A stretch of 64,000 nt of DNA from Patescibacteria group bacterium (GCA_049325535.1 JBMOKY010000001.1:422611-486610), one strand, 5' to 3'; counted from the first letter of the stretch, positions 13,732 to 33,931 are shown. Numbers and translations are program-made. Notes: generated from the letters alone by a model not told the origin.

Positions 13732-14137
13732 GCCCAAGTAAACTGGATGATTGCACGTTACATCATGTAATGTGAGGAAAGTCCGAACACCTCCGCCTAT
13801 ATAGGGCGGAACGTGGATAGTCGTGAAAGACGACCGAGGTGCAGCAACTAGAAGGTCTATAGTCTTCTGGATGTTGTCTTCAGGGAATAGTGTCACAGAG
13901 ACAATACCGCCCCGTCATCCGACAGGGTAAGGGTGAAAAGAGTGGGGTAAGAGCCCACAGGTTTGACCGGTGACGATCGAACGTGAAAAACCCTATCCGG
14001 TGCAAGACCAAGTAGGGTGCCCATTGGGCATCGGGTTGGTCGCATGATTCCGATGGTAACGTCGGAACCAGATAGATAATCATCGTCCACCGTTGGTGGA
14101 TACAGAATTCGGCTTACAGGTTTACTTGGGCACAACC
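13732..14137 (+). ncRNA. rnpB: RNase P RNA, bacterial type A
   Basis: P4 motif GAGGAAAGUCCGAACAC; P10-12 region GGGUAAGGGUGAAAAGAGUGGGGUAAGAGCCCAC; 3' motif ACAGAAUUCGGCUUACAG; P1 pairing GCCCAAGUAAAC / GUUUACUUGGGC. Confidence 0.8.
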
Positions 14138-19592: not shown

Positions 19593-21944
19593 ATGGCCGT
19601 GACGCACCACAATTCGCCGCACATTTCAACATCCCGTAAACCAGCCGGGCATACTGGCGTGCCTCGTGAAAATGTCATTGATCTGCGCGCGGTGCGGCGG
19701 GCGGAGATGCAGCATATCGATTTACCCCAGCCAGCTCTTCGCGAACGGCTGGCACAACGTTTTCAGGATTGGCGCACCCGCCGGCAGAGCCGGCGGCAGC
19801 ATCGGCATGCTGAGCGAGCGATGCGTGAACACGTCATCGTCTCGCGTGCGCACGAGCAACCGTCTACACCAATCGTATTTTCCGGCACAAGCAAAACCGC
19901 GCCATCCTCGGCTGTGTCGGCTCATGACCGTGCGGATTTGCCAGCACCATCCACCCGGATTCGGAGGGGATTTGCTCTGGTACCCGGCTGGCCACGCCGA
20001 TTAGCGTGGTTTGCCGCCATGTGCCTGGTGCTGCTCATACCCGTTGTCGGTACTTCGGTTTATCGCCAGGTAGTGGAGGCGAAAGGTGTGGTACTGGGTA
20101 TTTCTTCCGATGCCTATGGCGATTTGCGACAGGCCGGGAGCGCCGCGGGAAATGCGGATTTCGCTGAGGCGGCTGACCAGTTCAGAGCTGCCGCTGAAGC
20201 ATTTACCGTCGCTCAAGGCGAGCTGGATTCAGCGGGCGGTATCCTGACGACGGTAGCCGGCGCTATACCGGGTAAGGTGCAGAGCGCCGAGTCTCTTCTG
20301 GATGCCGGTAAATACCTCAGTCAGGCGGGCGCTACCGTCAGCCAGCTGATTCACAGCCTAGCCGGCGTCAGCGCCGATCCTGCCGATACCGAACATTCGT
20401 CATTGACCACGTATTTAGCTATTGCCCGGGACAGTATGGAGCCGGTTGCGGCGGACGTGGATGCCGCAGTCACTGCGCTTCAGGCGGTGCGATTGAAGGA
20501 TTTGCCGGATGAGTATCAGCGACCGATCAGCACGCTCCAGCAGTCGCTTCCCATTGTTCGTGATCGTCTCACCGACTTCAGTCAGCTCTCCGATGCGCTA
20601 CTCTATATACTGGGTGACGATGCTCCCCGGCGGTATGTGTTGGCTTTTCAGAATAACCGTGAACTCCGGCCGACCGGTGGATTTATCGGATCCGTCGCGC
20701 TCGTGGACATCAGCCGCGGTAGCATAGAAAATATCGAGGTCCCTGGCGGCGGCGTCTATGATATTGCCGGGCAGCTGCAGGAAAAATTGATTGCTCCGAA
20801 GCCGCTTTGGCTGGTCAATCCGCACTGGAATATACAGGACAGTAATTGGTTTCCGGATTTTCCCGCGTCAGCAAAAAAAATGATGTGGTTTTTTGAGCGT
20901 ACGGGTGGTACCTCGGTGGATGGGGTGCTGACGCTGACGCCGACCGTCATCGAGCGGATGCTGGACATTACCGGACCCATCGATATGCAGGCCGACTATG
21001 GCATTACTGTCACTGCCGACAATTTCGTCAGGGAAGCGCAGACTTTTGCCGAAATAACCTATGACCGTGACGAAAACCAACCGAAGAAATTCATCGGCGA
21101 TCTGGTGCCGATTATCCTCAATCGGGTTTTTCACGCTGACACTGAAACGCTGACATCGGTGGTGGACGTGCTCATCGGCTCGTTGCAGGATCACAATATG
21201 CTACTGTATTTTTCTGATGCTCCGGTGCAGTCCCGAATCGCTGAGTATGGCTGGGACGGGGGAGTGCGGCAGGCGTCGGATGACTATCTGTACGTGGTCA
21301 ATACAAATATCGCCGGCGGCAAGACTGACCATGTCATCGATCAGTTTATCAGGCATGATACAACCATTTCAGCGGACGGAAGCGTGATCGATACCGTCTC
21401 ATTGACGCGAGTCCATCGCGGCAGCCCGGTAGATGCGTTTGATGGGCAGGCGAATGTTTCGTATGTCCGCTTCTATGTGCCCCAGGGGAGCACGCTTATT
21501 TCAGCTGAGGGATTTGATCGGATTCCCGCCAGCCGATTCCACCAGCCAGATCTGGATGCCCAAGCGGACACCGATCTCCAGTTAGTAGAGCGCAATGCCA
21601 CTCTGCACGAGCAGAGTGATACCCGCATCACGCAGGAATTCGGCAAGACGGCGTTTGGCAATTGGATCAGCATCGATCCGGGCGAATCACAAACCGTGAC
21701 GATACGATACCGTTTGCCGCAGCAGATTCATGTCGGCGGGTTTATCAATACTACGGACACCTATTCACTCTATGTCCAGTCCCAGCCTGGCACGCACTCG
21801 TCCGCATTTATTCATACGGTCGCGCTTCCAGAAAAGATGAAACTTCGCTGGGCTTCGGCTGACGCTCAAATCGCCGACCGTACCATCAGCTTTAGCGTCG
21901 ATCTGGACACTGACCGCCAGTTTTCCATATTGCTTGATAAATAA
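19593..21944 (+). CDS. DUF4012-like membrane-anchored protein with long basic/low-complexity N-terminus
   Basis: 783 aa; N-terminal ~130 aa Arg/His-rich region, one TM, then large exported domain with LAFQNNRELRPTGGFIGS motif that I recall as typical of DUF4012. Confidence 0.45.
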   Translation: MAVTHHNSPHISTSRKPAGHTGVPRENVIDLRAVRRAEMQHIDLPQPALRERLAQRFQDWRTRRQSRRQHRHAERAMREHVIVSRAHEQPSTPIVFSGTSKTAPSSAVSAHDRADLPAPSTRIRRGFALVPGWPRRLAWFAAMCLVLLIPVVGTSVYRQVVEAKGVVLGISSDAYGDLRQAGSAAGNADFAEAADQFRAAAEAFTVAQGELDSAGGILTTVAGAIPGKVQSAESLLDAGKYLSQAGATVSQLIHSLAGVSADPADTEHSSLTTYLAIARDSMEPVAADVDAAVTALQAVRLKDLPDEYQRPISTLQQSLPIVRDRLTDFSQLSDALLYILGDDAPRRYVLAFQNNRELRPTGGFIGSVALVDISRGSIENIEVPGGGVYDIAGQLQEKLIAPKPLWLVNPHWNIQDSNWFPDFPASAKKMMWFFERTGGTSVDGVLTLTPTVIERMLDITGPIDMQADYGITVTADNFVREAQTFAEITYDRDENQPKKFIGDLVPIILNRVFHADTETLTSVVDVLIGSLQDHNMLLYFSDAPVQSRIAEYGWDGGVRQASDDYLYVVNTNIAGGKTDHVIDQFIRHDTTISADGSVIDTVSLTRVHRGSPVDAFDGQANVSYVRFYVPQGSTLISAEGFDRIPASRFHQPDLDAQADTDLQLVERNATLHEQSDTRITQEFGKTAFGNWISIDPGESQTVTIRYRLPQQIHVGGFINTTDTYSLYVQSQPGTHSSAFIHTVALPEKMKLRWASADAQIADRTISFSVDLDTDRQFSILLDK

Positions 21945-21967
21945 ATAAGCTATCAGCGTGTATCTGA

Positions 21968-21995
21968 AGCCAATACATATTTTGGCTATTTTTAG
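21968..21995 (+). terminator. putative intrinsic terminator after the DUF4012-like gene
   Basis: Stem AGCCAA/UUGGCU followed by AUUUUUAG; weak. Confidence 0.3.
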
Positions 21996-22070
21996 CATTA
22001 AAAAAATAATTGTGGATAACTTTTTTTCTATTATTAGCCAAAAAAAGCAATATACCTCCTGATAGACCCC

Positions 22071-22099
22071 TTGACCCATAAACCATATAGGTATATGAT
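22071..22099 (+). promoter_or_regulatory. sigma70-like promoter, TTGACC-17 nt-TATGAT
   Basis: Near-consensus elements with 17-nt spacer in an otherwise non-coding AT-rich region. Confidence 0.4.
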
Positions 22100-22105
22100 A
22101 GTTCG

Positions 22106-22292
22106 TTACGCTATTGATTCTTTTACATCACATATAAACTCTTTGAGGAGAGAGTCACCGCAAACGCCGGTGGAAATGCGTTTGGTACAAGCCATGAATA
22201 GCGTACTATCGTAGTATTGCGCTCAATTATTACAACGACCAATAACTCAAGCAAAAAACGTCTCTCCCTCAAACACGGAAAGACGTTTTTTG
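22106..22292 (+). ncRNA. candidate small RNA (~187 nt) bounded by the promoter and an intrinsic terminator
   Basis: No credible ORF; 5' segment GUUACGCUAUU can pair with AAUAGCGUAC (22197-22206); internal hairpin CAAACGC...GCGUUUG; ends in a terminator. Confidence 0.3.
22253..22292. terminator. strong rho-independent terminator, bidirectional (A-tract upstream, U-tract downstream)
   Basis: AAAAAACGUCU / AGACGUUUUUU 11-bp stem with 17-nt loop. Confidence 0.5.
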
Positions 22293-22560
22293 TAAACTTG
22301 AAAACTCCTTTCAAAAAGTAGTTTTCAATGCTTTCCGCAAAGCAGTAGTATCGCTCGCCCGACATAAAGTCGATGCTCGCGATGCTCCAATAGTTTGTAC
22401 TTAGGGAAAAGGAGGACGAGTAATGGGTGCCACTCTGAGATAGTCGTGATCCGGTTTCGACTGGAACATAACTACCTCTGGCACTCGGTGCGTCGGTTAC
22501 TTCGGTGACTAAAGGCGCGCCTCTCGAATCCTTCTCCCTACATACAAATTGTCCTTCTAT

Positions 22561-22666
22561 ATCCTCCACATATCTGCTTCTAGGCCTCCCGAACATCTCT
22601 AATGTTCTCGAGGCCTCCTTTCTCCAGCGGTTAACGAGTTTTCTCATTAATTACTGAAGAAAGGAA
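22561..22666 (+). repeat. intergenic structured repeat, copy A (long form)
   Basis: Hairpin 1 AGGCCUCCCGAACAU..AUGUUCUCGAGGCCU, then CCUCCUUUCUCCAGCGG..loop with UCUCAU..CUGAAGAAAGGAAA; ~85% identical to copy B. Confidence 0.55.
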
Positions 22667-22687
22667 AAGAAAAAAAGGGTGTAAAAA

Positions 22688-22912
22688 ATGAAAAACCTTA
22701 AAAAAGCTCTTTACAACTGGTCTATACCAGTTTCCATTTCCCTAATCAGCATGTTACTTGCTGGTTGCACGATGGAAACGATCCTTGCAGTTTCATTACC
22801 TGGAGCAGTAATTTGCTTCGTCATTACTACGATTCTCTATATAAAGGTAATCGAAGCTGCAGTAATACTAGTAGTACTGTTGATTACAACATTTGCAAGA
22901 CACGCTATGTAG
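22688..22912 (+). CDS. small membrane protein, 74 aa, 2 TM
   Basis: ORF directly after repeat copy A; AAGGGUG SD 7 nt upstream of the ATG. Confidence 0.45.
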   Translation: MKNLKKALYNWSIPVSISLISMLLAGCTMETILAVSLPGAVICFVITTILYIKVIEAAVILVVLLITTFARHAM

Positions 22913-22936: not shown

Positions 22937-23041
22937 ATCCTCCACATCTGCCTTAGGCCACCCGAACATCTCAAATGTATCCCGTGGCCTCCTTTCTCCA
23001 GCGGTTAACGAGTTTTCTCATTAATTGCTGAAGAAGGGAAA
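22937..23041 (+). repeat. intergenic structured repeat, copy B (long form)
   Basis: Same two-hairpin architecture and conserved CCUCCUUUCUCCAGCGGUUAACGAGUUUUCUCAUUAAUUGCUGAAGAAGGGAAA. Confidence 0.55.
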
Positions 23042-23081
23042 TATGTTCATTGAGAGATCACAATCAAAATCGGAGGAAATC

Positions 23082-23621: not shown

Positions 23622-23700
23622 GGCGAGGGACGTTCTATCCGTTCCTCGCCTCCTTTCTCCAGCGATTGATGGGTGATCTCATTGATTGCTGAAGAAAGAA
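23622..23700 (+). repeat. intergenic structured repeat, copy C (short form)
   Basis: GC hairpin GGCGAGGGACG..CCGUUCCUCGCC then CCUCCUUUCUCCAGCGA..UCUCAU..UGCUGAAGAAAGAAA. Confidence 0.5.
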
Positions 23701-23733
23701 ATCGCACGTTTACTAGTGAATAAGGGGCTAGTC

Positions 23734-24228: not shown

Positions 24229-24326
24229 TGTTCGAGAAGGTGAATGTCACAAAGACATATATCTCACCTTCTCGAACACCTTCTCCAGCGCAGTACGGGT
24301 AATCTCATACTGTGCTGAAGAAGGAA
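24229..24326 (+). repeat. intergenic structured repeat, copy D (diverged)
   Basis: Perfect 14-bp hairpin GUUCGAGAAGGUGA..UCACCUUCUCGAAC then CACCUUCUCCAGCG..UCUCAU..UGCUGAAGAAGGAAC. Confidence 0.45.
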
Positions 24327-24525
24327 CATTCAAAAAAAACTTATCACCGAAATGGAGGGGTAGTCTGGTGTACACCTGGCATATGCTGCGCGGTACCCAC
24401 TGCGTTATGTGCCTGGATATACCGTTGTCCGTCAGTCCAATTTATTGGGCAAAGGCGGGCGGCTCGCCTCCACTTCGGTGGTTAGATAGAACACGATCTT
24501 CGACAAAAAAAGAAAGGAAGGTATT

Positions 24526-24984: not shown

Positions 24985-25448
24985 CCACCACTTTCGGAAG
25001 GGGAGCGTATGCAGGTATTCACGATTGTTGTATAACGATTGTGAATCGGCTGCGCTCCCCCTCATTCTCGAACGTATGATCAATCATATGCTCGCGCGTG
25101 GGACGCGATATTGACAATATATCTTCTTGCGGTTATAGCTACTTATGTGCTCACTCTGGTGGGCACCGAAAAAGCTGCCGATGAGTTTTTAAAAGACGGC
25201 GCATCACTTCTTTTTGAGGAAAACTCTCTCCTCAATGCCCTCAATTATTTGAAGGCATATCTCAAAAAGTAGTACCCATGCGTTGTCGCTTGTCGGCAGC
25301 TTTTTGGTTTGCTATAAAGAACTGCTTGTGCAGCATTATTTGCGGGCCCACTCGCTTTCCCGTCAGGGCAACCTGGAGGTCCTTCGTATGACTTAGGATG
25401 GTTTGCTTTTACAAACCATTTTACGACACACTAATTATATAAATAGAC

Positions 25449-25477
25449 TTGATTTTTGAAGAAAAAGTTGTTATAAT
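25449..25477 (+). promoter_or_regulatory. sigma70-like promoter for murJ, TTGATT-17 nt-TATAAT; predicts a leaderless or near-leaderless mRNA
   Basis: -10 ends 9 nt before the murJ ATG (25487), so the predicted TSS is 0-3 nt upstream of the ATG. Confidence 0.4.
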
Positions 25478-25486
25478 TTTTTCATT

Positions 25487-27106
25487 ATGTTCAGCAGGAT
25501 TTGGCATAAATTAACCACCACCCTTACCGGTGGTGCAATTATTATCGCAGTGGCCTCGGTCGCAAGTCGGTTGATTGGATTGGTGCGAGATCGGCTGCTT
25601 GCCACACAGTTTGGAGCGGGAGATAGCCTGGACGTGTATTATGCCGCCTTTCGTATTCCGGATTTAGTTTTTAATGTTTTGGTTCTCGGCGCCTTGTCCG
25701 CGGCTTTTATACCGGTATTTGTCCAGTACATTGAGCGTGCTAAGGCTGGTACGCAGCAGAAGGAAGAGGTCTGGTATTTGGTAAATTCACTTCTGAATAT
25801 CTTATTGATCGGACTGTGTGTATTTGGCGCGGTTCTTTTTATTTTCGCTCCGCAGATTGTACCTCTGATTGCTCCCGGTTTTGATCCAGAGAAACGACTG
25901 ATGGTGGTGCAGATGACGCGTATTATGTTGGTATCGATACTCTTTTTCGGTGCGAGCAACATCATGACTGGCATTCTCAATTCCTTCAAACGGTATGTCA
26001 ATTTTGCGTTTGCGCCGGTACTGTATAATTTTGGCATTATTATCGGTATTTACGCCTTGGTGCCTCACTATGGTGTATACGGCCTGGCCTATGGTGTGGT
26101 GGTCGGTTCGTTTTTGCATATGGCGATTCAGCTTCCCGGCGTATTCCGCCTCGGCTATCGCTACCGTTTTGTGGCGGATCGGAAGCATCCCGGTGTTCGC
26201 GAAATCGGCCGGTTGATGGTACCGCGGACGTTTGGACTGGCGGTCAATCAAATCGACCAGTTGGTGAGCGTGATTATTGGTTCGACACTGGCGGTCGGTT
26301 CGGTAACGATTTTCAATTTTGCAAACAATCTTCAACATTTTCCTATCAGCGTGTTTGGCGTTTCTTTGGCTGTGGCTTCGTACCCATTTTTTAGCGAGGC
26401 ATCTGCTCGAAAAGATGGGGAGATGTTTGTCGTCCACTTTTCCACGACACTGCGGCGGATACTTTTTCTCATCATCCCCACGTCGGTATTGATTTTGCTG
26501 CTTCGGGCTCAGATTGTCCGAGTGGTACTCGGCGCCGGGGCATTTGACTGGAATGACACCTATTTGACCGCACAGACGTTGGGTTTTTTTGCCATATCGT
26601 TATTCGCACAGAGTACCATTCCGCTATTGACGCGCTCATTTTATGCCTGGCATGATACGAAAACTCCAGTCAAGGTCGGCTTGCTGAGCGTCGGCGCGAA
26701 TATCCTCGGCGCGTATATTCTCAGTCGTATATTTGGCGTGATCGGACTGGGTGTTTCGTATTCTATCGCCAGCATCATACAGATGGCCGTTTTGTTCTGG
26801 CTATTGAGACGGCAGCGTGGGTATCTCGACGACCGGAAAATAATATACTCTGTGACTAAAATAGTCCTGATTAGCGCCATGATGGGCGCCATCGTCATCG
26901 GCGCAAAATATGTACTGGCGCTCGGGGTGAACATGCAGTCGTTTGTCGGTATTTTCATCCAGGGGATGGGCGCGGGAATAGTCGGGCTGGTCAGCTATAT
27001 GGTTTTAGCGTTCGTGTTCCGCTGCGATGAAATCACGATAATTACTCAATGGATTCAGAAAGCCCGGCTGCAATTATTTAATGGAAAGACTCCTGCCCAT
27101 GACTAG
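25487..27106 (+). CDS. murJ: lipid II flippase MurJ
   Basis: MviN/MurJ signature region RLIGLVRDRLLATQFGAGDSLDVYYAAFRIPD; 14-TM MOP-family protein; 539 aa. Confidence 0.85.
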   Translation: MFSRIWHKLTTTLTGGAIIIAVASVASRLIGLVRDRLLATQFGAGDSLDVYYAAFRIPDLVFNVLVLGALSAAFIPVFVQYIERAKAGTQQKEEVWYLVNSLLNILLIGLCVFGAVLFIFAPQIVPLIAPGFDPEKRLMVVQMTRIMLVSILFFGASNIMTGILNSFKRYVNFAFAPVLYNFGIIIGIYALVPHYGVYGLAYGVVVGSFLHMAIQLPGVFRLGYRYRFVADRKHPGVREIGRLMVPRTFGLAVNQIDQLVSVIIGSTLAVGSVTIFNFANNLQHFPISVFGVSLAVASYPFFSEASARKDGEMFVVHFSTTLRRILFLIIPTSVLILLLRAQIVRVVLGAGAFDWNDTYLTAQTLGFFAISLFAQSTIPLLTRSFYAWHDTKTPVKVGLLSVGANILGAYILSRIFGVIGLGVSYSIASIIQMAVLFWLLRRQRGYLDDRKIIYSVTKIVLISAMMGAIVIGAKYVLALGVNMQSFVGIFIQGMGAGIVGLVSYMVLAFVFRCDEITIITQWIQKARLQLFNGKTPAHD

Positions 27107-30345: not shown

Positions 30346-31592
30346 ACATGAAACCAAAAATTACCCCGACATCGCCCAAAGTACAGACTGACGATACAGA
30401 TCAGATAGAAAAATTATACGATGGTACTCTAAAAACCATAGACAAACCGCAGTCCAAGGCGCGTTTTTCAATCAGTTGGTTGCTTATCGTCATCATTATC
30501 GGGTTTTTTGCCGGCATCGTTGGTCAGCTGGCCCTGCTCTCATTCGGTGATCGGATTCCGTGGCTGGAAAAATTTGGCCTGACCAGTGGTTCTGAAACCT
30601 CGGTGATACTGACCTCTCGTAACAAAGATAGGATTTTGACCGCAGCACAGGTGGAATCAATTGCAGAGGATTTATCACAGAGCGTGGTCCGTTTTTACCC
30701 GCGTCACGATGAAACGACCGGGCTCGATGCGCAGTATCTCCCCAGTGAAAAGGTGGCGGAGGGGTTTGTGCTGACCGATGATGGATATGTGGCAATATTG
30801 GCTGACGCGCTGCCTGAAGGGGGGGATTATGTCGCCATCACTGACGATGGAGATATATATGCGGTTGAGCGCATCGTCCGCGATCCAGCCACGGTTTATG
30901 CTTTTGTCCAAATTGGAGCCACGGGTCTGACCACGGTAGGATTTTCCGACGCGGTAAATATTCGCAACACCGAGGAAATACTGGCCATCCAGTCGCTGCA
31001 CGATGGGGTACACCAGATAGCGCGTACACCCATTATTGCCACTGACTATTACCCGATGAATCAGTCGAACGATTTTGTTATGAGTTCAGAACAGTACGAT
31101 TCACTAGTCCTTTTTGGTCAGGATCTCGACCCTCGGTTTGTCGGGAGCGTTGCCTTCACGTTTGATAAAAAAGCACTCGGAATCATCACTCGGGTGGGGG
31201 GTGAGCATGTGATAGAGCCGTTTGAGCGGATCACAGAAGTCATGAGTGACGTATTTTCCGGCGCGGCAGTTGAGCGCCCGTATCTCGGCGTGCGCTATGT
31301 GGAACTCGATCAACTGCATGCACCGATCACCGATGCCATCCCGCTGGAGCAGCAGGGGAACTATATATACACCACTGAGGACGTCTCCGGGGTGGTAGCC
31401 GATAGTCCGGCTAGTGCCGCAGGTTTGCAGAATGGAGATATCATCACCGAGGTGGACGGTCAGCCTATCGGTGCACAATTGTCTATCGCTGATGTAGTAC
31501 TGGCGCATGCGGCTGGCGATACATTGACATTGACCATAGTCCGAAATGGAGAATCACAAAAAACAAATGTTACCCTGGCCACCCTTCCCTAA
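30336..31592 (+). CDS. membrane-anchored PDZ-domain protein (HtrA-like architecture, catalytic triad not recognisable)
   Basis: N-terminal TM; C-terminal PDZ (GLQNGDIITEVDGQPIGAQLSIADVVLAHAAGDTLTLTIVRNG); no GNSGGP-type serine motif. Confidence 0.5.
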   Translation: MDLDMKPKITPTSPKVQTDDTDQIEKLYDGTLKTIDKPQSKARFSISWLLIVIIIGFFAGIVGQLALLSFGDRIPWLEKFGLTSGSETSVILTSRNKDRILTAAQVESIAEDLSQSVVRFYPRHDETTGLDAQYLPSEKVAEGFVLTDDGYVAILADALPEGGDYVAITDDGDIYAVERIVRDPATVYAFVQIGATGLTTVGFSDAVNIRNTEEILAIQSLHDGVHQIARTPIIATDYYPMNQSNDFVMSSEQYDSLVLFGQDLDPRFVGSVAFTFDKKALGIITRVGGEHVIEPFERITEVMSDVFSGAAVERPYLGVRYVELDQLHAPITDAIPLEQQGNYIYTTEDVSGVVADSPASAAGLQNGDIITEVDGQPIGAQLSIADVVLAHAAGDTLTLTIVRNGESQKTNVTLATLP

Positions 31593-31593
31593 C

Positions 31594-33486
31594 ATGCGCG
31601 GCACATTGTGGATTTTTGGGATCAGCACCGCCTGCGCACTGGCTGGGGTCATAGCGATGACATCCGAGCCAGCCGCGGCAGTTGCATCCGAGTCTCGTAG
31701 TATTGTGGTGCAGCTTCGCGGTCGCGATACCGTGTCCGCTATACCGATCGGCAGTGCGGAAAACGTGGGAGCGCTCTTATCACGCCTGGCTGATGATCCG
31801 CGGATAGAGCATGCGCAGCTGAATCATGATTACCAGGCGGTTGCCACGCCCAATGACCCACTGCGCAGCTCTCAGACATATCTGCCCGTCATGCACGCGC
31901 AGCGGGCCTGGGACACCGCCACTGGTTCGAAATCAGTAACTGTGGCTATTCTGGATACTGGCATGGATATTGACCACCCTGATTTTTCCGGCAATCTTTG
32001 GACGAATACCGGTGAAATAGCGGCAAACGGCGTCGATGATGATCGAAATGGATATATCGATGATCGGAACGGCTGGAATATAGTTGATAATACGAGCGAT
32101 CCAAACCCCCAGTATGATGCCGGATGGACCGAATCGGGCATTCATCATGGTACCGCTATTGCCGGCGTCATCGGAGCGCGGGGTAATAACGCCCAGGGGA
32201 TCACTGGAATCAACTGGCGGGTGAACACGATGCCCGTACGCGTTCTGAAGAGCACTGGTGCGGGAAATACCCGGGATGTATACAATGGCATCCGCTATGC
32301 TATGCGCAATGGCGCCGATTTCATCAATCTGAGCTTTGTCGGCACCAATGAAGATGCGCTCCTGGCGCGGGTGATCAAGGAAGCAACCGAGGCGGGAATC
32401 ATCGTGTTTGCAGCGGCGGGCAATGATAATCTTAATTTAAACGTACATCCGCGCTATCCGGTATGTACCGCGTATGTTGTCGGTGTCGGGGGTACTGACC
32501 TCAATGATCGTCGGTTTACCGTCATGAACGGTTCGACGATAACGGGCGGTTCGAATTATGGAAGCAATTGCATTGATCTGGTCGCGCCAGCAAAAAATAT
32601 TTACACCACTGCTGTGTATGATCCACTCGTGTCACATCCGGTTTCAGGAGCTTTCCTCGATGAATATTATGGCGGGGGCTGGACTGGTACTTCATTAGCA
32701 AGCCCGATGGTGGCCGGGGCAGCTGCGCTGATAAAATCATATAATGCGTCTTTGACAGGCCTGCAGATTACCCAGTTGCTCAAACAGAGTGCGGTTAATA
32801 TCGACGGATTGAATCCAAGTGTGGCTGGCCACCTCGGTGCGGGGCGGGTCGATTTAGCTGCGCTGATGGCTACCCAGCTTCCCACGGCGCACGCACTCAT
32901 CACCGGTGCCGGGAATACCGGCGCGCCGCACGTACGTGTACTGAACACCTCCGGGACAGTTCAGTCCCAGTTTTTCGCGTATGCTTCGACTTTTCGTGGT
33001 GGGGTGTATGTAGCCTCAGGTGATGTGACTGGCGATGGCCAGCCGGATATCATCACCGGTGCCGGGAATACCGGCGCGCCGCACGTACGTGTACTGAACG
33101 CCTCCGGGACAGTTCAGTCCCAGTTTTTCGCGTATGCTTCGACTTTTCGTGGTGGGGTGTATGTAGCCTCAGGTGATGTGGACGGTGACGGCATCGATGA
33201 GATTATTACCGGCGCTGGTGTGGGTGGCGGACCTCACGTGCGCATCTTTGACTACCACGGCACGGTCAAAGACCAATTCTTTGCCTACGCCACGGAATTT
33301 CGTGGTGGGGTACAGGTAGCCGCAGGTGATGTGGACGGTGACGGCATCGATGAGATTATTACCGGCGCTGGGAACACTGGGGCACCGCACGTACGTATTC
33401 TGACGGCTTCCGGTGCCGTACAGTCTCAGTTTTTTGCTTATACGTCCACATTTCGTGGAGGTGTACATGTAGCAGTAATGCAATAG
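31594..33486 (+). CDS. secreted subtilisin-like (S8) serine peptidase with C-terminal FG-GAP repeats
   Basis: Catalytic D (VAILDTGMDIDHPDF), H (HGTAIAGVIG), S (GTSLASPMVAGAAALI); signal peptide MRGTLWIFGISTACALAGVIA; ~3.8 FG-GAP repeats (GDVDGDGIDEIITGAG). Confidence 0.8.
   Translation: MRGTLWIFGISTACALAGVIAMTSEPAAAVASESRSIVVQLRGRDTVSAIPIGSAENVGALLSRLADDPRIEHAQLNHDYQAVATPNDPLRSSQTYLPVMHAQRAWDTATGSKSVTVAILDTGMDIDHPDFSGNLWTNTGEIAANGVDDDRNGYIDDRNGWNIVDNTSDPNPQYDAGWTESGIHHGTAIAGVIGARGNNAQGITGINWRVNTMPVRVLKSTGAGNTRDVYNGIRYAMRNGADFINLSFVGTNEDALLARVIKEATEAGIIVFAAAGNDNLNLNVHPRYPVCTAYVVGVGGTDLNDRRFTVMNGSTITGGSNYGSNCIDLVAPAKNIYTTAVYDPLVSHPVSGAFLDEYYGGGWTGTSLASPMVAGAAALIKSYNASLTGLQITQLLKQSAVNIDGLNPSVAGHLGAGRVDLAALMATQLPTAHALITGAGNTGAPHVRVLNTSGTVQSQFFAYASTFRGGVYVASGDVTGDGQPDIITGAGNTGAPHVRVLNASGTVQSQFFAYASTFRGGVYVASGDVDGDGIDEIITGAGVGGGPHVRIFDYHGTVKDQFFAYATEFRGGVQVAAGDVDGDGIDEIITGAGNTGAPHVRILTASGAVQSQFFAYTSTFRGGVHVAVMQ
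32899..33483 (+). repeat. 153-bp tandem repeat (~3.8 copies) encoding the FG-GAP units; copies 1 and 2 nearly identical
   Basis: 32899-33051 vs 33052-33204 differ at only a few positions; copies 3-4 more diverged; last unit truncated by the stop codon. Confidence 0.7.
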
Positions 33487-33490
33487 GTAT

Positions 33491-33931
33491 ATGTGGAACC
33501 GCTTACATCCAATCATCCAGCAGCGACCGGGAATTTTTCAATTTGCAAAATTTGCAGTGGTTGGCGTAGTTGGCACGTGCGTTGATTTCGGTGTGTACGC
33601 GCTGCTGACACGCGTTTTCGGATTGTATTATATTGCCGCCACAGCTATCAGTGTATTGCTGGCTATCGTCAATAACTTTCTTCTGAATAAACACTGGACA
33701 TTTGACAAAGGTGATAGTGGAAATGCACGATCAGAATCGGGAAAGTTTTTTGTAGTGAGTGTGATCAATTATTTTTTGAATCTCGGCATTGTGTATTTCA
33801 TCGTCGAGCACACGGCAGCACATCAGTTATTTGGCGCTAACGATGATCTATTTGCCAAGATGGTTGCTATCGGTATTGTTTTGTTTAGTAATTTTTTTGG
33901 CAATAAATACTGGACATTTCGCGATGCCTAG
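33491..33931 (+). CDS. GtrA family membrane protein (polyprenol-phosphate-sugar flippase accessory)
   Basis: 146 aa, 4 TM, GtrA-like N-terminus FAKFAVVGVVGTCVDFGVYALL. Confidence 0.7.
   Translation: MWNRLHPIIQQRPGIFQFAKFAVVGVVGTCVDFGVYALLTRVFGLYYIAATAISVLLAIVNNFLLNKHWTFDKGDSGNARSESGKFFVVSVINYFLNLGIVYFIVEHTAAHQLFGANDDLFAKMVAIGIVLFSNFFGNKYWTFRDA

What the first reader, a model, noticed from the sequence alone, without database searches (positions are those of the whole stretch)
22071..22292. Promoter- and terminator-bounded ~190-nt transcript with no ORF: candidate sRNA
A near-consensus sigma70 promoter (TTGACC-17-TATGAT) sits ~150 nt upstream of a very strong bidirectional intrinsic terminator (11-bp stem flanked by A6 and U6). 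The interval has no plausible ORF, and its 5' end can pair with a segment ~90 nt downstream. The unit lies in a 730-bp AT-rich non-coding gap. The length is in the 6S RNA range, but I cannot confirm identity.
Basis: seen in the sequence. Interest (0 to 1): 0.55.

Follow-up and report, generated by a model that had tools for sequence, protein, structure and literature searches.

The report
Paired small RNAs bracketing CPR gene cassettes

Summary
A TTGACC-17-TATGAT promoter (22071-22099) lies upstream of an intrinsic terminator (22253-22291). They bound a ~187-nt ORF-less transcript, here RNA-1.

It is not 6S RNA, and no Rfam family matches. It is strongly conserved. About 30 homologues occur in Kerfeldbacteria-like and other Patescibacteria contigs. 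One is 93.7% identical in nucleotides while the flanking genes are only 64-73% identical.

The part that never varies is a purine tract, GAGGAGAGAG (22145-22154), usually half-buried in the hairpin ACUCUUU-GAGG-AGAGAGU. The terminator's 5' arm is complementary to this tract in 28 of 28 homologues.

An exact complement, ACUCUCUCCUCAA (25223-25235), sits single-stranded in a second conserved promoter/terminator unit, RNA-2 (~25146-25305). RNA-2 lies on the same strand at the distal end of the array.

Between the two RNAs lie variable small membrane-protein ORFs. They are separated by two further covarying RNA elements, B1 and the C hairpins.

Best reading: RNA-1 is the leader/small RNA of the cassette array. 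It acts through its purine tract as an RNA-controlled attenuator, or as a decoy partner of RNA-2. Which RNA regulates which, and expression itself, are untested.

The parts
21982..22041 (+). Operator-like sequences upstream of the promoter: palindrome-like TTGGCTATTTTTAGCA (21982-21997), the DnaA-box-like TGTGGATAA (22011-22019) and the half-site TTAGCCAA (22034-22041).
   Evidence: The same two motifs recur upstream of the -35 in most homologous loci (GCTAAtAtTAGC-type palindrome and TGTGGATA[T/A]). In the window they lie about 50 nt further from the -35 than elsewhere. Which factor binds them was not tested.
22071..22099 (+). Sigma70-type promoter of RNA-1 (-35 TTGACC, 17-nt spacer, -10 TATGAT).
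   Evidence: It is conserved in position and sequence in about 25 homologues.
22105..22291 (+). RNA-1, the flagged transcript (~187 nt). The start is inferred at the G of the conserved GUUA, 6 nt after the -10.
   Evidence: Fold z = -4.4. Homologues come from the 18-mer search and from synteny alone. It is 93.7% identical to L072 against 64-73% for the flanking genes. No Rfam family matches.
22138..22155 (+). Core hairpin ACUCUUU-GAGG-AGAGAGU. The invariant purine tract GAGGAGAGAG is 22145-22154.
   Evidence: The hairpin forms in the MFE fold of nearly all homologues. In homologues found by synteny the 5' arm varies or is lost (CCUCU in L071/L075, AUUCUUU in L079, absent in L078), but GGAGAGAG is kept in 7 of 7.
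22239..22247 (+). Conserved CCAAUAACU. Its UAAC can pair with the 5'-terminal GUUA (22105-22108) to close the multi-branch fold.
   Evidence: Alignment A1. Pair counts give 83% of cells paired, but mostly through sequence conservation with little covariation. The helix is plausible, not proven.
22253..22291 (+). Intrinsic terminator (A6, stem-loop, U6). Its 5' arm carries CUCUCC (22262-22267), complementary to the purine tract.
   Evidence: The stem covaries. Complementarity to the tract holds in 28 of 28 homologues, 26 of them with CUYUYY. Duplex energies are -9 to -14.6 kcal/mol against -4 to -8 for shuffles, mean z -3.5.
22395..22560 (+). B1, a multi-copy structured RNA element that follows the RNA-1 terminator. 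It has a long purine/pyrimidine closing helix and two inner hairpins.
   Evidence: nhmmer finds up to 4 copies per locus. In alignment A2, 27 of 42 predicted pairs show compensatory changes. No Rfam match.
22606..22668 (+). C hairpin, copy 1 (CCAGCG-N23-GCUGAA with pairing flanks), just before the 74-aa ORF (22688-22912). Further copies: 22980-23042, 23641-23703, 24267-24329.
   Evidence: repeat families D2/D3. There are 31 distinct matches to the pattern across loci (two of them, on the opposite strand, look like chance matches). 19% of their pairs are G-U, so selection acts on the + strand RNA. The flanks covary, and the 3' flank is often the Shine-Dalgarno (SD) site of the next ORF.
25111..25139 (+). 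Promoter of RNA-2 (-35 TTGACA, 17-nt spacer, -10 TATAGC).
   Evidence: Read from the sequence. TTGACA-16/17-TATAC[T/A/C] is conserved in L072, L013, L020 and L062, with TATTTT in L002 and TATCCT in L073. The scanner missed it because the -10 lacks the final T.
25146..25305 (+). RNA-2, a ~160-nt partner RNA at the distal end of the array. It has a 5' hairpin and a long-range closing helix (GCUGCCGA 25174-25181 with UCGGCAGC 25293-25300) followed by U5.
   Evidence: alignment A3; the 13-bp closing helix is kept in 8 of 8. No Rfam match.
25223..25235 (+). ACUCUCUCCUCAA, the exact reverse complement of RNA-1 22143-22155.
   Evidence: The pyrimidine motif CUCUCUCC(U/C)(C/U) lies downstream on the same strand in 13 loci, 12 of them among the 15 with at least about 3.2 kb of downstream sequence. 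It is never upstream. It is unpaired in the MFE fold of 7 of the 8 standard homologues, costs only 0.3 kcal/mol to unpair in the window, and is largely in the apical loop of a hairpin in the variant L071.

Best explanation
RNA-1 is the promoter-proximal leader of a hypervariable cassette array in Kerfeldbacteria-like CPR bacteria. The array sits between the DUF4012 gene and murJ. RNA-1 is released as a ~187-nt small RNA whenever its terminator fires.

Its working part is the invariant purine tract GAGGAGAGAG, which has three competing pyrimidine partners:
1. Its own 5' arm, ACUCUUU, which forms the core hairpin.
2. The CUCUCC in the 5' arm of its own terminator. This pairing would pre-empt the terminator and let RNA polymerase run into the cassettes.
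3. The single-stranded CUCUCUCCUC(AA) loop of RNA-2, a second small RNA made from its own promoter at the far end of the array.

I infer that RNA-2 (or the 5' arm) sequestering the tract lets the terminator form and keeps the array off, and that a free tract gives read-through. This is the logic of countertranscript-driven attenuation in pT181-type plasmids, but with a trans-encoded partner.

Shown: the conservation, the structures, and both complementarities. Inferred: transcription itself, the direction of control, and the effect on termination.
For: Conservation.
- The unit is conserved far beyond neutral expectation: 93.7% nucleotide identity against 64-73% for the flanking genes.
- About 30 homologues carry the same promoter, tract and terminator plan.

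The two complementarities.
- The tract is complementary to the terminator 5' arm in 28 of 28 homologues, mean z -3.5 against shuffled arms.
- The pyrimidine motif complementary to the tract lies on the same strand 0.8-5.9 kb downstream in 13 loci, 12 of them among the 15 with enough sequence. It is never upstream.
- That complement sits inside a separate conserved promoter/terminator RNA whose fold leaves it unpaired.
- In the variant lineage L071, both partners changed over the same segment (RNA-1 UUGAG to CUCUG; RNA-2 CUCAA to CCUUA). A 9-bp match GGAGAGAGA/UCUCUCUCC remains.

Link to the downstream genes.
- The genes downstream are on the same strand in every locus examined, roughly ten of them unrelated contexts.
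- No sigma70-like promoter lies between the terminator and the first cassettes in the window, L020 or L002.
- RNA-1 and the cassettes occur together or not at all. L003 and L080 have DUF4012 directly followed by murJ, with neither.
- In L046 and L006/L012 the same core sits in an ordinary 5' UTR with no typical U-tract terminator before the ORF.
Against: - There is no expression data.
- The terminator is strong (-14 kcal/mol plus U6, and up to -25 in homologues). The 6-8-bp tract/terminator pairing is weaker and spans 30-150 nt of variable hairpins, so read-through would need help.
- The default core hairpin already favours termination, so RNA-2 may not be needed for that step.
- Apart from the purine/pyrimidine tracts, no lineage-specific complementarity between RNA-1 and its own downstream 1.5 kb was found.
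- CPR promoters may not all look sigma70-like, so internal promoters could have been missed.
- The near-complete conservation of all 187 nt between the window and L072 suggests more constraints than a simple attenuator needs.
Confidence: 0.45

Rival explanations
1. Purely trans-acting pair. RNA-2 is an anti-Shine-Dalgarno small RNA. It represses purine-rich sites in the cassette 5' UTRs (for example the GGAGGAGAGAG arms of B2-type elements) and SD sites. RNA-1 is its abundant decoy or sponge, or else an activator that opens the pyrimidine strands of the C and B elements. Its terminator is constitutive, and the cassettes have their own unrecognised promoters.
For: - RNA-1 is a discrete unit with a strong promoter and terminator.
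- RNA-2 displays its tract single-stranded, like a seed.
- The same purine tract recurs 100-800 nt downstream in B2-type elements.
- The pyrimidine 5' flanks of the C hairpins pair with flanks that often contain the SD, so a purine-tract RNA could unlock them.
- RNA-1 has its own operator-like sites, which suggests independent regulation.
Against: - This model does not explain why the terminator 5' arm must be complementary to the tract in 28 of 28 homologues.
- It does not explain why RNA-1 always lies upstream of, and co-oriented with, the array.
- No promoter-like sites precede the first cassettes.
Confidence: 0.3
2. A ligand-, protein- or ribosome-sensing attenuator (riboswitch-like leader). 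The multi-branch fold closed by GUUA/UAAC senses a signal, and the resemblance to RNA-2 is incidental to both being SD/anti-SD-like sequences.
For: - The layout is a multi-stem junction followed by a terminator.
- Unpaired CCAAUAACUCAAGC is conserved next to the terminator.
- The whole RNA is highly conserved between the window and L072.
- The tract looks like an SD site that a 30S subunit or a protein could bind.
Against: - The region between the core and the terminator varies from about 15-20 to about 175 nt. A second subfamily (L014, L022, L024, L033, L034, L007, L019) lacks the closing helix altogether.
- The closing helix shows almost no covariation.
- The regulated genes are non-homologous between genomes, unlike riboswitch regulons.
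- The 10-13-nt exact match to RNA-2, conserved across deep lineages, is unlikely to be incidental.
Confidence: 0.12
3. DNA-level inverted repeats. TTGAGGAGAGAG at the head and CTCTCTCCTCAA at the tail are recombination sites for inversion or mobilisation of the cassette block.
For: The two sites are a 12-13-bp inverted repeat bracketing a 2-4-kb variable segment that is present or absent as a block between conserved genes.
Against: - No recombinase or transposase gene was noticed in the ORF maps and Pfam-annotated gene lists of the loci, though the whole window was not annotated.
- The repeat is short and does not extend beyond 13 bp.
- Both copies are embedded in promoter/terminator-bounded RNAs with covarying structure.
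- The array has the same orientation in every locus in which both repeats were found.
Confidence: 0.04
4. 6S RNA, the first reader's suggestion: a mimic of an open promoter that sequesters RNA polymerase.
For: Only the length (~187 nt) and the strong promoter.
Against: - No hit to any Rfam 6S model at E<=10.
- The fold is not a rod with a central bubble.
- Two copies occur on one contig (L036/L062).
- The most conserved feature is an SD-like tract, which 6S RNAs do not have.
Confidence: 0.02

Closest known systems
Countertranscript-driven transcriptional attenuation (plasmids pT181, pIP501, pAMbeta1). From my own knowledge of these systems.
   Same: A leader ends in an intrinsic terminator. 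An upstream 'pre-emptor' segment is complementary to the terminator's 5' arm. A small RNA is complementary to that same segment, so its binding decides whether the terminator forms.
   Different: In the plasmids the regulator is a fully complementary cis-antisense RNA, and the target is a replication gene. Here the partner (RNA-2) is encoded 1-6 kb away on the same strand and matches only 10-13 nt. The downstream genes are variable small membrane proteins on a CPR chromosome. No effect on termination has been shown.
Small-RNA/sponge pairs and C/U-rich anti-SD seeds (GcvB-SroC, ChiX-chb spacer, Staphylococcus RNAIII/RsaE UCCC loops). From my own knowledge.
   Same: A short conserved single-stranded pyrimidine seed (RNA-2) is matched by a purine, SD-like site in another transcript (RNA-1, B2 arms). 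RNAIII even uses the loop of its terminator hairpin as a seed.
   Different: No sequence or structural homology: Rfam has no hit. Both partners are fixed at the two ends of one gene array, and the purine partner is also complementary to its own terminator.
6S RNA (Rfam RF00013 and related families)
   Same: Size range, and a strong promoter of its own.
   Different: No model match, no rod-and-bubble structure, and more than one copy on a contig.
Integron cassette arrays (Pc promoter plus attC hairpins). Architectural analogy only, from my own knowledge.
   Same: A single strong promoter heads a co-oriented array of short, unrelated, mostly promoter-less ORFs. Conserved imperfect hairpins separate them. 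The array is inserted as a block between conserved genes.
   Different: No integrase gene was seen near any array. The C hairpins lack the attC R''/R' (GTTRRRY) core. Their many G-U pairs point to RNA-level selection. The array is bracketed by two RNA genes.
STAB-SD 5' stabilisers (Bacillus thuringiensis cryIIIA) and processive-antitermination RNAs (EAR, put). From my own knowledge.
   Same: An SD-like sequence near the 5' end of a transcript that starts no ORF. The leader RNA lies in a cell-envelope polysaccharide gene neighbourhood and is followed by several terminator-like hairpins.
   Different: No Rfam hit to EAR or any other family. Here the leader's own terminator immediately follows, is conserved, and is complementary to the tract.

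Membership tests
6S RNA | Match to the Rfam 6S covariance models | tested here: not met
   No 6S hit in the window at gathering score. None in 21900-22750 at E<=10. None in 14 homologous loci.
6S RNA | Rod-like fold with 5' and 3' ends paired and a large central bubble | tested here: not met
   MFE folds of 22 homologues give a core hairpin, variable hairpins and a separate terminator. At most a 4-6-bp GUUA/UAAC closure forms.
6S RNA | Binds the sigma70 holoenzyme and templates product RNA | not testable with these tools
   This needs biochemistry.
Independent bacterial small-RNA gene (own promoter plus intrinsic terminator, non-coding) | Sigma70-type promoter conserved at a fixed distance | tested here: met
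Independent bacterial small-RNA gene (own promoter plus intrinsic terminator, non-coding) | Rho-independent terminator with a covarying stem and a U-tract | tested here: met
Independent bacterial small-RNA gene (own promoter plus intrinsic terminator, non-coding) | No conserved ORF on either strand | tested here: met
   Candidate start codons after the SD-like tract give non-conserved reading frames when read from the sequences.
Independent bacterial small-RNA gene (own promoter plus intrinsic terminator, non-coding) | A discrete transcript of the predicted size is detected | not testable with these tools
   No transcriptome data are available here.
Countertranscript/small-RNA-controlled transcription attenuator | Leader terminator upstream of co-oriented genes that lack a promoter of their own | tested here: met
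   Caveat: this was only a consensus sigma70 scan.
Countertranscript/small-RNA-controlled transcription attenuator | Upstream segment complementary to the terminator 5' arm (pre-emptor) | tested here: met
   28 of 28 homologues, mean z -3.5.
Countertranscript/small-RNA-controlled transcription attenuator | A small RNA complementary to the pre-emptor | tested here: met
   RNA-2 tract: 10-13 nt exact, displayed single-stranded, co-occurring in 12 of 15 loci with enough sequence.
Countertranscript/small-RNA-controlled transcription attenuator | The regulator is a cis-encoded antisense transcript of the leader | tested here: not met
   RNA-2 lies on the same strand 3.1 kb away. No minus-strand promoter was found around RNA-1.
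Countertranscript/small-RNA-controlled transcription attenuator | Binding changes termination efficiency | not testable with these tools
   This needs in vitro transcription or reporter assays.
Riboswitch | Conserved aptamer core with covarying helices, upstream of functionally coherent genes | tested here: not met
   The middle region varies from about 15-20 to about 175 nt. The closing helix does not covary. The downstream ORFs are unrelated and match no Pfam family.
Any curated RNA family (Rfam 15) | Covariance-model match | tested here: not met
   Only RNase P RNA and tRNAs were found, elsewhere in the sequences.

The most novel reading that the evidence does not exclude
CPR bacteria of the Kerfeldbacteria type, and other Patescibacteria, carry an RNA-organised cassette system. 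A hypervariable block of small membrane, pilin-like and secreted protein genes is expressed under a dedicated four-part RNA scheme. The parts are a head RNA with a purine tract, a tail RNA with the exact complementary pyrimidine loop, a multi-copy ~150-nt structured element (B1/B2), and a 35-nt hairpin module (C) that masks each ORF's ribosome-binding site. The two bracket RNAs would set transcription and translation of the whole array by mutual titration. None of the four elements is in Rfam or in the searched literature.
Probability: 0.35. Interest if true: 0.85.

Novelty: new variant of a known kind. Interest (0 to 1): 0.72.

Why it matters
Regulatory RNAs of CPR/Patescibacteria are essentially uncharted. 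These organisms have tiny genomes, few transcription factors and an episymbiotic lifestyle that depends on surface and pilus proteins.

In this locus a non-coding RNA is better conserved than the proteins beside it. It is tied to a block of fast-evolving small envelope proteins. It also has a specific, testable partner: a complementary 10-13-nt tract in a second conserved RNA.

If the model holds, it gives a first mechanistic handle on how CPR bacteria switch variable surface-gene cassettes. It also adds up to four new RNA families (RNA-1, RNA-2, B1, C). Finally, it extends pT181-style RNA-controlled attenuation from plasmid antisense RNAs to a chromosomal, trans-encoded pair.

Tried and rejected
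- 6S RNA and every other Rfam family: no hit at gathering score or at E<=10, in the window or in 14 homologous loci.
- tRNA or tmRNA: none.
- Protein-coding readings: the + strand 47-aa ORF starts in the -35. The minus-strand 174-aa ORF, which was called as a gene on the Logan contig, is not conserved. No conserved leader peptide follows the SD-like tract.
- Phage or plasmid origin: no blastn match for 22060-22600 in either collection. The three viral-contig hits to the 18-mer are unrelated sequences without the RNA-1 features; two lie in GC-rich, coding-looking sequence.
- Replication origin, suggested by the DnaA-box-like TGTGGATAA: the GC skew does not change sign across the window, and L002 lies at about 325 kb of a 1.31-Mb chromosome.
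- Extra diverged RNA-1 copies in the window or the fetched loci: none by nhmmer or by a 3-mismatch search.
- Lineage-specific antisense pairing between RNA-1 and its own downstream 1.5 kb: the longest complementary words are no longer for cognate than for non-cognate pairs. An earlier RNAduplex version of this test timed out.
- Whole-molecule RNAduplex of RNA-1 against RNA-2: uninformative, because unrestricted duplexes of two long RNAs score as well when shuffled. I rely instead on the exact, positionally conserved complement.
- Literature searches on Patescibacteria/CPR small RNAs, riboswitch motifs, DUF4012 and Kerfeldbacteria returned nothing describing these RNAs.
- An attC/integron reading of the C hairpins: no GTTRRRY core and no integrase gene nearby, and the G-U content points to RNA-level selection.

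Full report
**1. What is in the window**

The interval between the stop of a 783-aa DUF4012 gene (19593-21944) and the next ORF (22688) is 743 bp. It is about 41% GC, against about 52% in the surroundings.

The promoter TTGACC-17-TATGAT is at 22071-22099. The terminator is A6-AACGUCUCUCC-[9-nt loop]-GGAAAGACGUU-U6 at 22253-22291. It has one C/A mismatch and folds at -14.1 kcal/mol. The scanner missed it only because the loop exceeds its 8-nt limit.

The ~187-nt interval folds better than all 200 shuffles (z -4.4).

No plausible ORF exists. The 47-aa + strand ORF begins in the -35. The 174-aa minus-strand ORF is broken in relatives. On a promoter count alone the region is not above chance (3 sites against 3.8 expected). 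The case rests on comparative data.

**2. It is not a known RNA**

Rfam 15 finds only RNase P RNA (13735-14132) in the window. Nothing credible appears in 21900-22750 even at E<=10. No family covers the homologous regions of 14 related loci. There are no tRNA or tmRNA genes. The 6S suggestion is therefore not supported, and the folds are not rod-like. Literature searches found no description of the RNA.

**3. Organism and conservation**

The DUF4012 neighbour places the window in CPR/Patescibacteria. The nearest named genomes are Candidatus Kerfeldbacteria.

In the Kerfeldbacteria chromosome CP181398.1 (L002) the DUF4012 protein is only 44% identical. Even so, the downstream gap has the same promoter, an identical 18-mer ACTCTTTGAGGAGAGAGT, the same CCAATAACT, and a terminator containing CTCTCC.

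A metagenome scan with the 18-mer returned 64 loci. About 23 distinct ones have the full plan. That plan is a consensus promoter 18-60 nt (typically 35-55) upstream, the core hairpin, variable hairpins, and a terminator with CUCUYC near its apex.

That search forces the core to be invariant. I therefore took a second, independent sample through DUF4012 homologues and their contigs. Five of these loci were new and carried RNA-1; two more new loci are described after the list.
- L076 and L077 have the exact core.
- L079 has AUUCUUUGAGGAGAGAGU.
- L071 and L075 have CCUCUGGAGAGAGA.
- L078 has CAACGAGGAGAGAGC, with no 5' arm.

L072 also has the exact core. In L003 and L080, DUF4012 abuts murJ and there is neither RNA-1 nor cassettes.

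So the invariant element is the purine tract GGAGAGAG (mostly GAGGAGAGAG), not the hairpin as such.

Against L072, RNA-1 is 93.7% identical. The next 330 nt are 85% identical. DUF4012 is 64% (57% at the amino-acid level), the upstream glycosyltransferase gene 67% and murJ 73%.

**4. Anatomy of RNA-1**

- The transcript probably starts at a conserved (A)GUUA, 5-6 nt after the -10.
- The tract sits in the hairpin ACUCUUU-GAGG-AGAGAGU (22138-22155).
- In the Kerfeldbacteria-like subfamily a conserved CCAAUAACUCAAGC precedes the terminator. Its UAAC can pair with the 5' GUUA. That helix is supported mainly by sequence conservation, not covariation.
- The terminator stem does covary (5 of 8 pairs).
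- Upstream of the -35 lie two conserved operator-like motifs, TGTGGATA(T/A) and a GCTAATATTAGC-type palindrome.

**5. First complementarity: tract and own terminator**

In all 28 homologues the terminator's 5' arm or apex carries a pyrimidine run complementary to the tract (26 have CUYUYY). Duplex energies are -9 to -14.6 kcal/mol, against -4 to -8 for shuffled arms (mean z -3.5). A terminator has no other reason to conserve such a sequence. This is the layout of a three-part attenuator: 5' arm, tract, terminator arm.

**6. Second complementarity: RNA-2**

The exact reverse complement of the tract recurs on the same strand at the far end of the array. In the window it is ACTCTCTCCTCAA at 25223-25235, 13 nt complementary to 22143-22155.

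The pyrimidine motif CUCUCUCC(U/C)(C/U) is present downstream in 13 loci, 12 of them among the 15 with at least about 3.2 kb of downstream sequence. It is never upstream on that strand. The loci span different lineages and contexts: window, L072, L071, L002, L013, L020, L062, L073, L038, L007, L053, L012, L033.

The motif lies inside a second conserved unit, RNA-2. In the window the parts are:
- promoter TTGACA-17-TATAGC (25111-25139);
- a 5' hairpin;
- a 13-bp long-range closing helix, GCUGCCGA... with ...UCGGCAGC;
- a U-run, giving a transcript of about 25146-25305.

In 7 of the 8 standard homologues the MFE fold leaves AAAAUCUCUCUCCUCA as an unpaired internal loop. That loop lies between a covarying helix (GUAGAA/UUCUAC, AUAGAA/UUCUAU, AUGGAA/UUCCAU, UUGGAA/UUCCAA) and a hairpin. 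In the window the unpaired form costs only 0.3 kcal/mol. In the variant L071 the tract is largely in the apical loop of a hairpin.

In L071 both partners have changed over the same segment, and a 9-bp match remains. This is co-variation in the loose sense, not a clean compensatory change. RNA-2 has no Rfam match.

**7. What lies between the two RNAs**

All features are on the + strand. In order, the window has:
- three small hairpins (22298-22390);
- B1 (22395-22560);
- a GC hairpin plus C hairpin (22581-22668);
- ORF 74 aa;
- C hairpin, then ORF ~180 aa;
- C hairpin, then ORF ~160 aa;
- C hairpin, then a B2-like element (24345-24505), then ORF 152 aa;
- RNA-2, then the murJ promoter and murJ/lepA.

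The four ORFs have no Pfam match and look like membrane proteins. In other genomes the ORFs are different; some are pilin-like with N_methyl domains.

B1 is multi-copy, with up to four copies per locus. 27 of its 42 predicted pairs show compensatory changes.

The C hairpins (CCAGCG-N23-GCUGAA) have covarying stems and flanks. 19% of their pairs are G-U, which places the selection on the + strand RNA. Their 3' flank is often the Shine-Dalgarno site of the next ORF.

No sigma70-like promoter lies between the RNA-1 terminator and the first cassettes in the window, L020 or L002. On one 50-kb contig two RNA-1 copies occur within one array (L036, L062).

**8. Interpretation**

These points are shown:
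- RNA-1 is a conserved non-coding unit.
- Its tract is complementary both to its own terminator arm and to the exposed loop of RNA-2.
- It always heads a co-oriented array.
- RNA-1 and the array are present or absent together.

From this I infer that RNA-1 is the leader of the array and works as an RNA-controlled attenuator. A free tract pre-empts the terminator. A tract captured by its 5' arm or by RNA-2 allows termination. The terminated product accumulates as a small RNA (confidence 0.45).

The main rival keeps the same pairing but reverses the logic. RNA-1 would be a decoy for an anti-SD small RNA (RNA-2), or an activator that opens the pyrimidine strands masking cassette ribosome-binding sites, with no role for read-through (0.30).

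The remaining models:
- A ligand-, protein- or ribosome-sensing attenuator independent of RNA-2 (0.12).
- DNA inverted repeats for inversion or mobilisation (0.04).
- 6S RNA (0.02).

**9. Limits**

- There is no expression evidence.
- The collection scans were capped. Family breadth and true tract covariation could not be measured exhaustively.
- The promoter scans assume sigma70-like consensus in CPR bacteria.
- Start sites are inferred from -10 positions.

**10. Verdict**

The finding is real and more interesting than proposed. It is not 6S RNA. It is an undescribed CPR RNA family that forms one half of a complementary RNA pair bracketing a hypervariable cassette array built from two further novel RNA modules.

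Noticed in passing
window 25111-25305 (+): RNA-2, a second conserved promoter/terminator-bounded RNA of about 160 nt just upstream of murJ. It has a long-range closing helix and a single-stranded CUCUCUCCUC loop. Homologues occur in L072, L071, L002, L013, L020, L062, L073 and L038. It has no Rfam match.
   Followed up: yes
window 22395-22560 (+); also L002 8598-8776, 9362-9545, 9918-10090, 10964-11131: B1, a structured RNA element of about 150 nt with multiple copies per locus. It has a ~20-bp purine/pyrimidine closing helix containing AAGGAGG, and two inner hairpins. 27 of 42 predicted pairs show compensatory changes. It is not in Rfam and its function is unknown.
   Followed up: partly
window 22606-22668, 22980-23042, 23641-23703, 24267-24329 (+): C hairpins: CCAGCG-N23-GCUGAA with covarying stems and flanks, each preceded by a GC-rich hairpin. 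There are 31 distinct matches to the pattern across loci (two look like chance), and 19% of pairs are G-U. The 3' flank often provides the ribosome-binding site of the next small ORF, so C probably masks translation starts. A Logan assembly contig breaks inside copy 1 (at about window position 22641).
   Followed up: partly
window 24345-24505 (+): A B2-like structured element starting GGAGGGGUAGUCUGG and ending CGCCUCCA, ahead of the 152-aa ORF. In L021, L038 and L062 such elements begin with GGAGGAGAGAG, the same purine tract as RNA-1, so they are further candidate RNA-2 targets.
   Followed up: partly
window 21982-22041 (+): Operator-like motifs upstream of the RNA-1 promoter: a DnaA-box-like TGTGGATAA and a GCTAAtAtTAGC-type palindrome. 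They are conserved in position in most homologous loci, including distant lineages. The GC skew does not indicate an origin of replication here.
   Followed up: partly
window 25417-25498 (+): CCATTTTACGACACAC is conserved upstream of the murJ promoter in the window, L072, L071 and L062. The murJ ATG (25487) lies only 9 nt after the TATAAT -10 (25472-25477), which suggests a leaderless or near-leaderless mRNA.
   Followed up: no
L003 7917-8190; L080 5454-5469: In a Portnoybacteria contig and in one Kerfeldbacteria genome, DUF4012 is followed directly by murJ, or by only a truncated pilin-like ORF. RNA-1, the cassettes and RNA-2 are all absent, so the whole module is present or absent as a block.
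   Followed up: partly
window 13735-14132 (+): RNase P RNA, bacterial class A (217 bits), about 8 kb upstream. The same linkage is seen in L002, L025 and L036.
   Followed up: no
window 32897-33508 (+): Four tandem 153-nt repeats (92% to 62% identity to the reference copy) inside the 646-aa subtilase / FG-GAP repeat protein gene (31546-33486).
   Followed up: no
L046 1054-1300; L006/L012/L043; L015/L017/L027/L028/L049: The same ACUCUUUGAGGAGAGAGU core occurs in other contexts. In L046 and L006/L012/L043 it lies in a 5' UTR running into an ORF, with no typical U-tract terminator in between. In L015/L017 and relatives it is followed by a different hairpin set. Several of these loci also carry a downstream AAAAAAUCUCUCUCCUC site. 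The motif pair is therefore wider than the Kerfeldbacteria-type array.
   Followed up: partly
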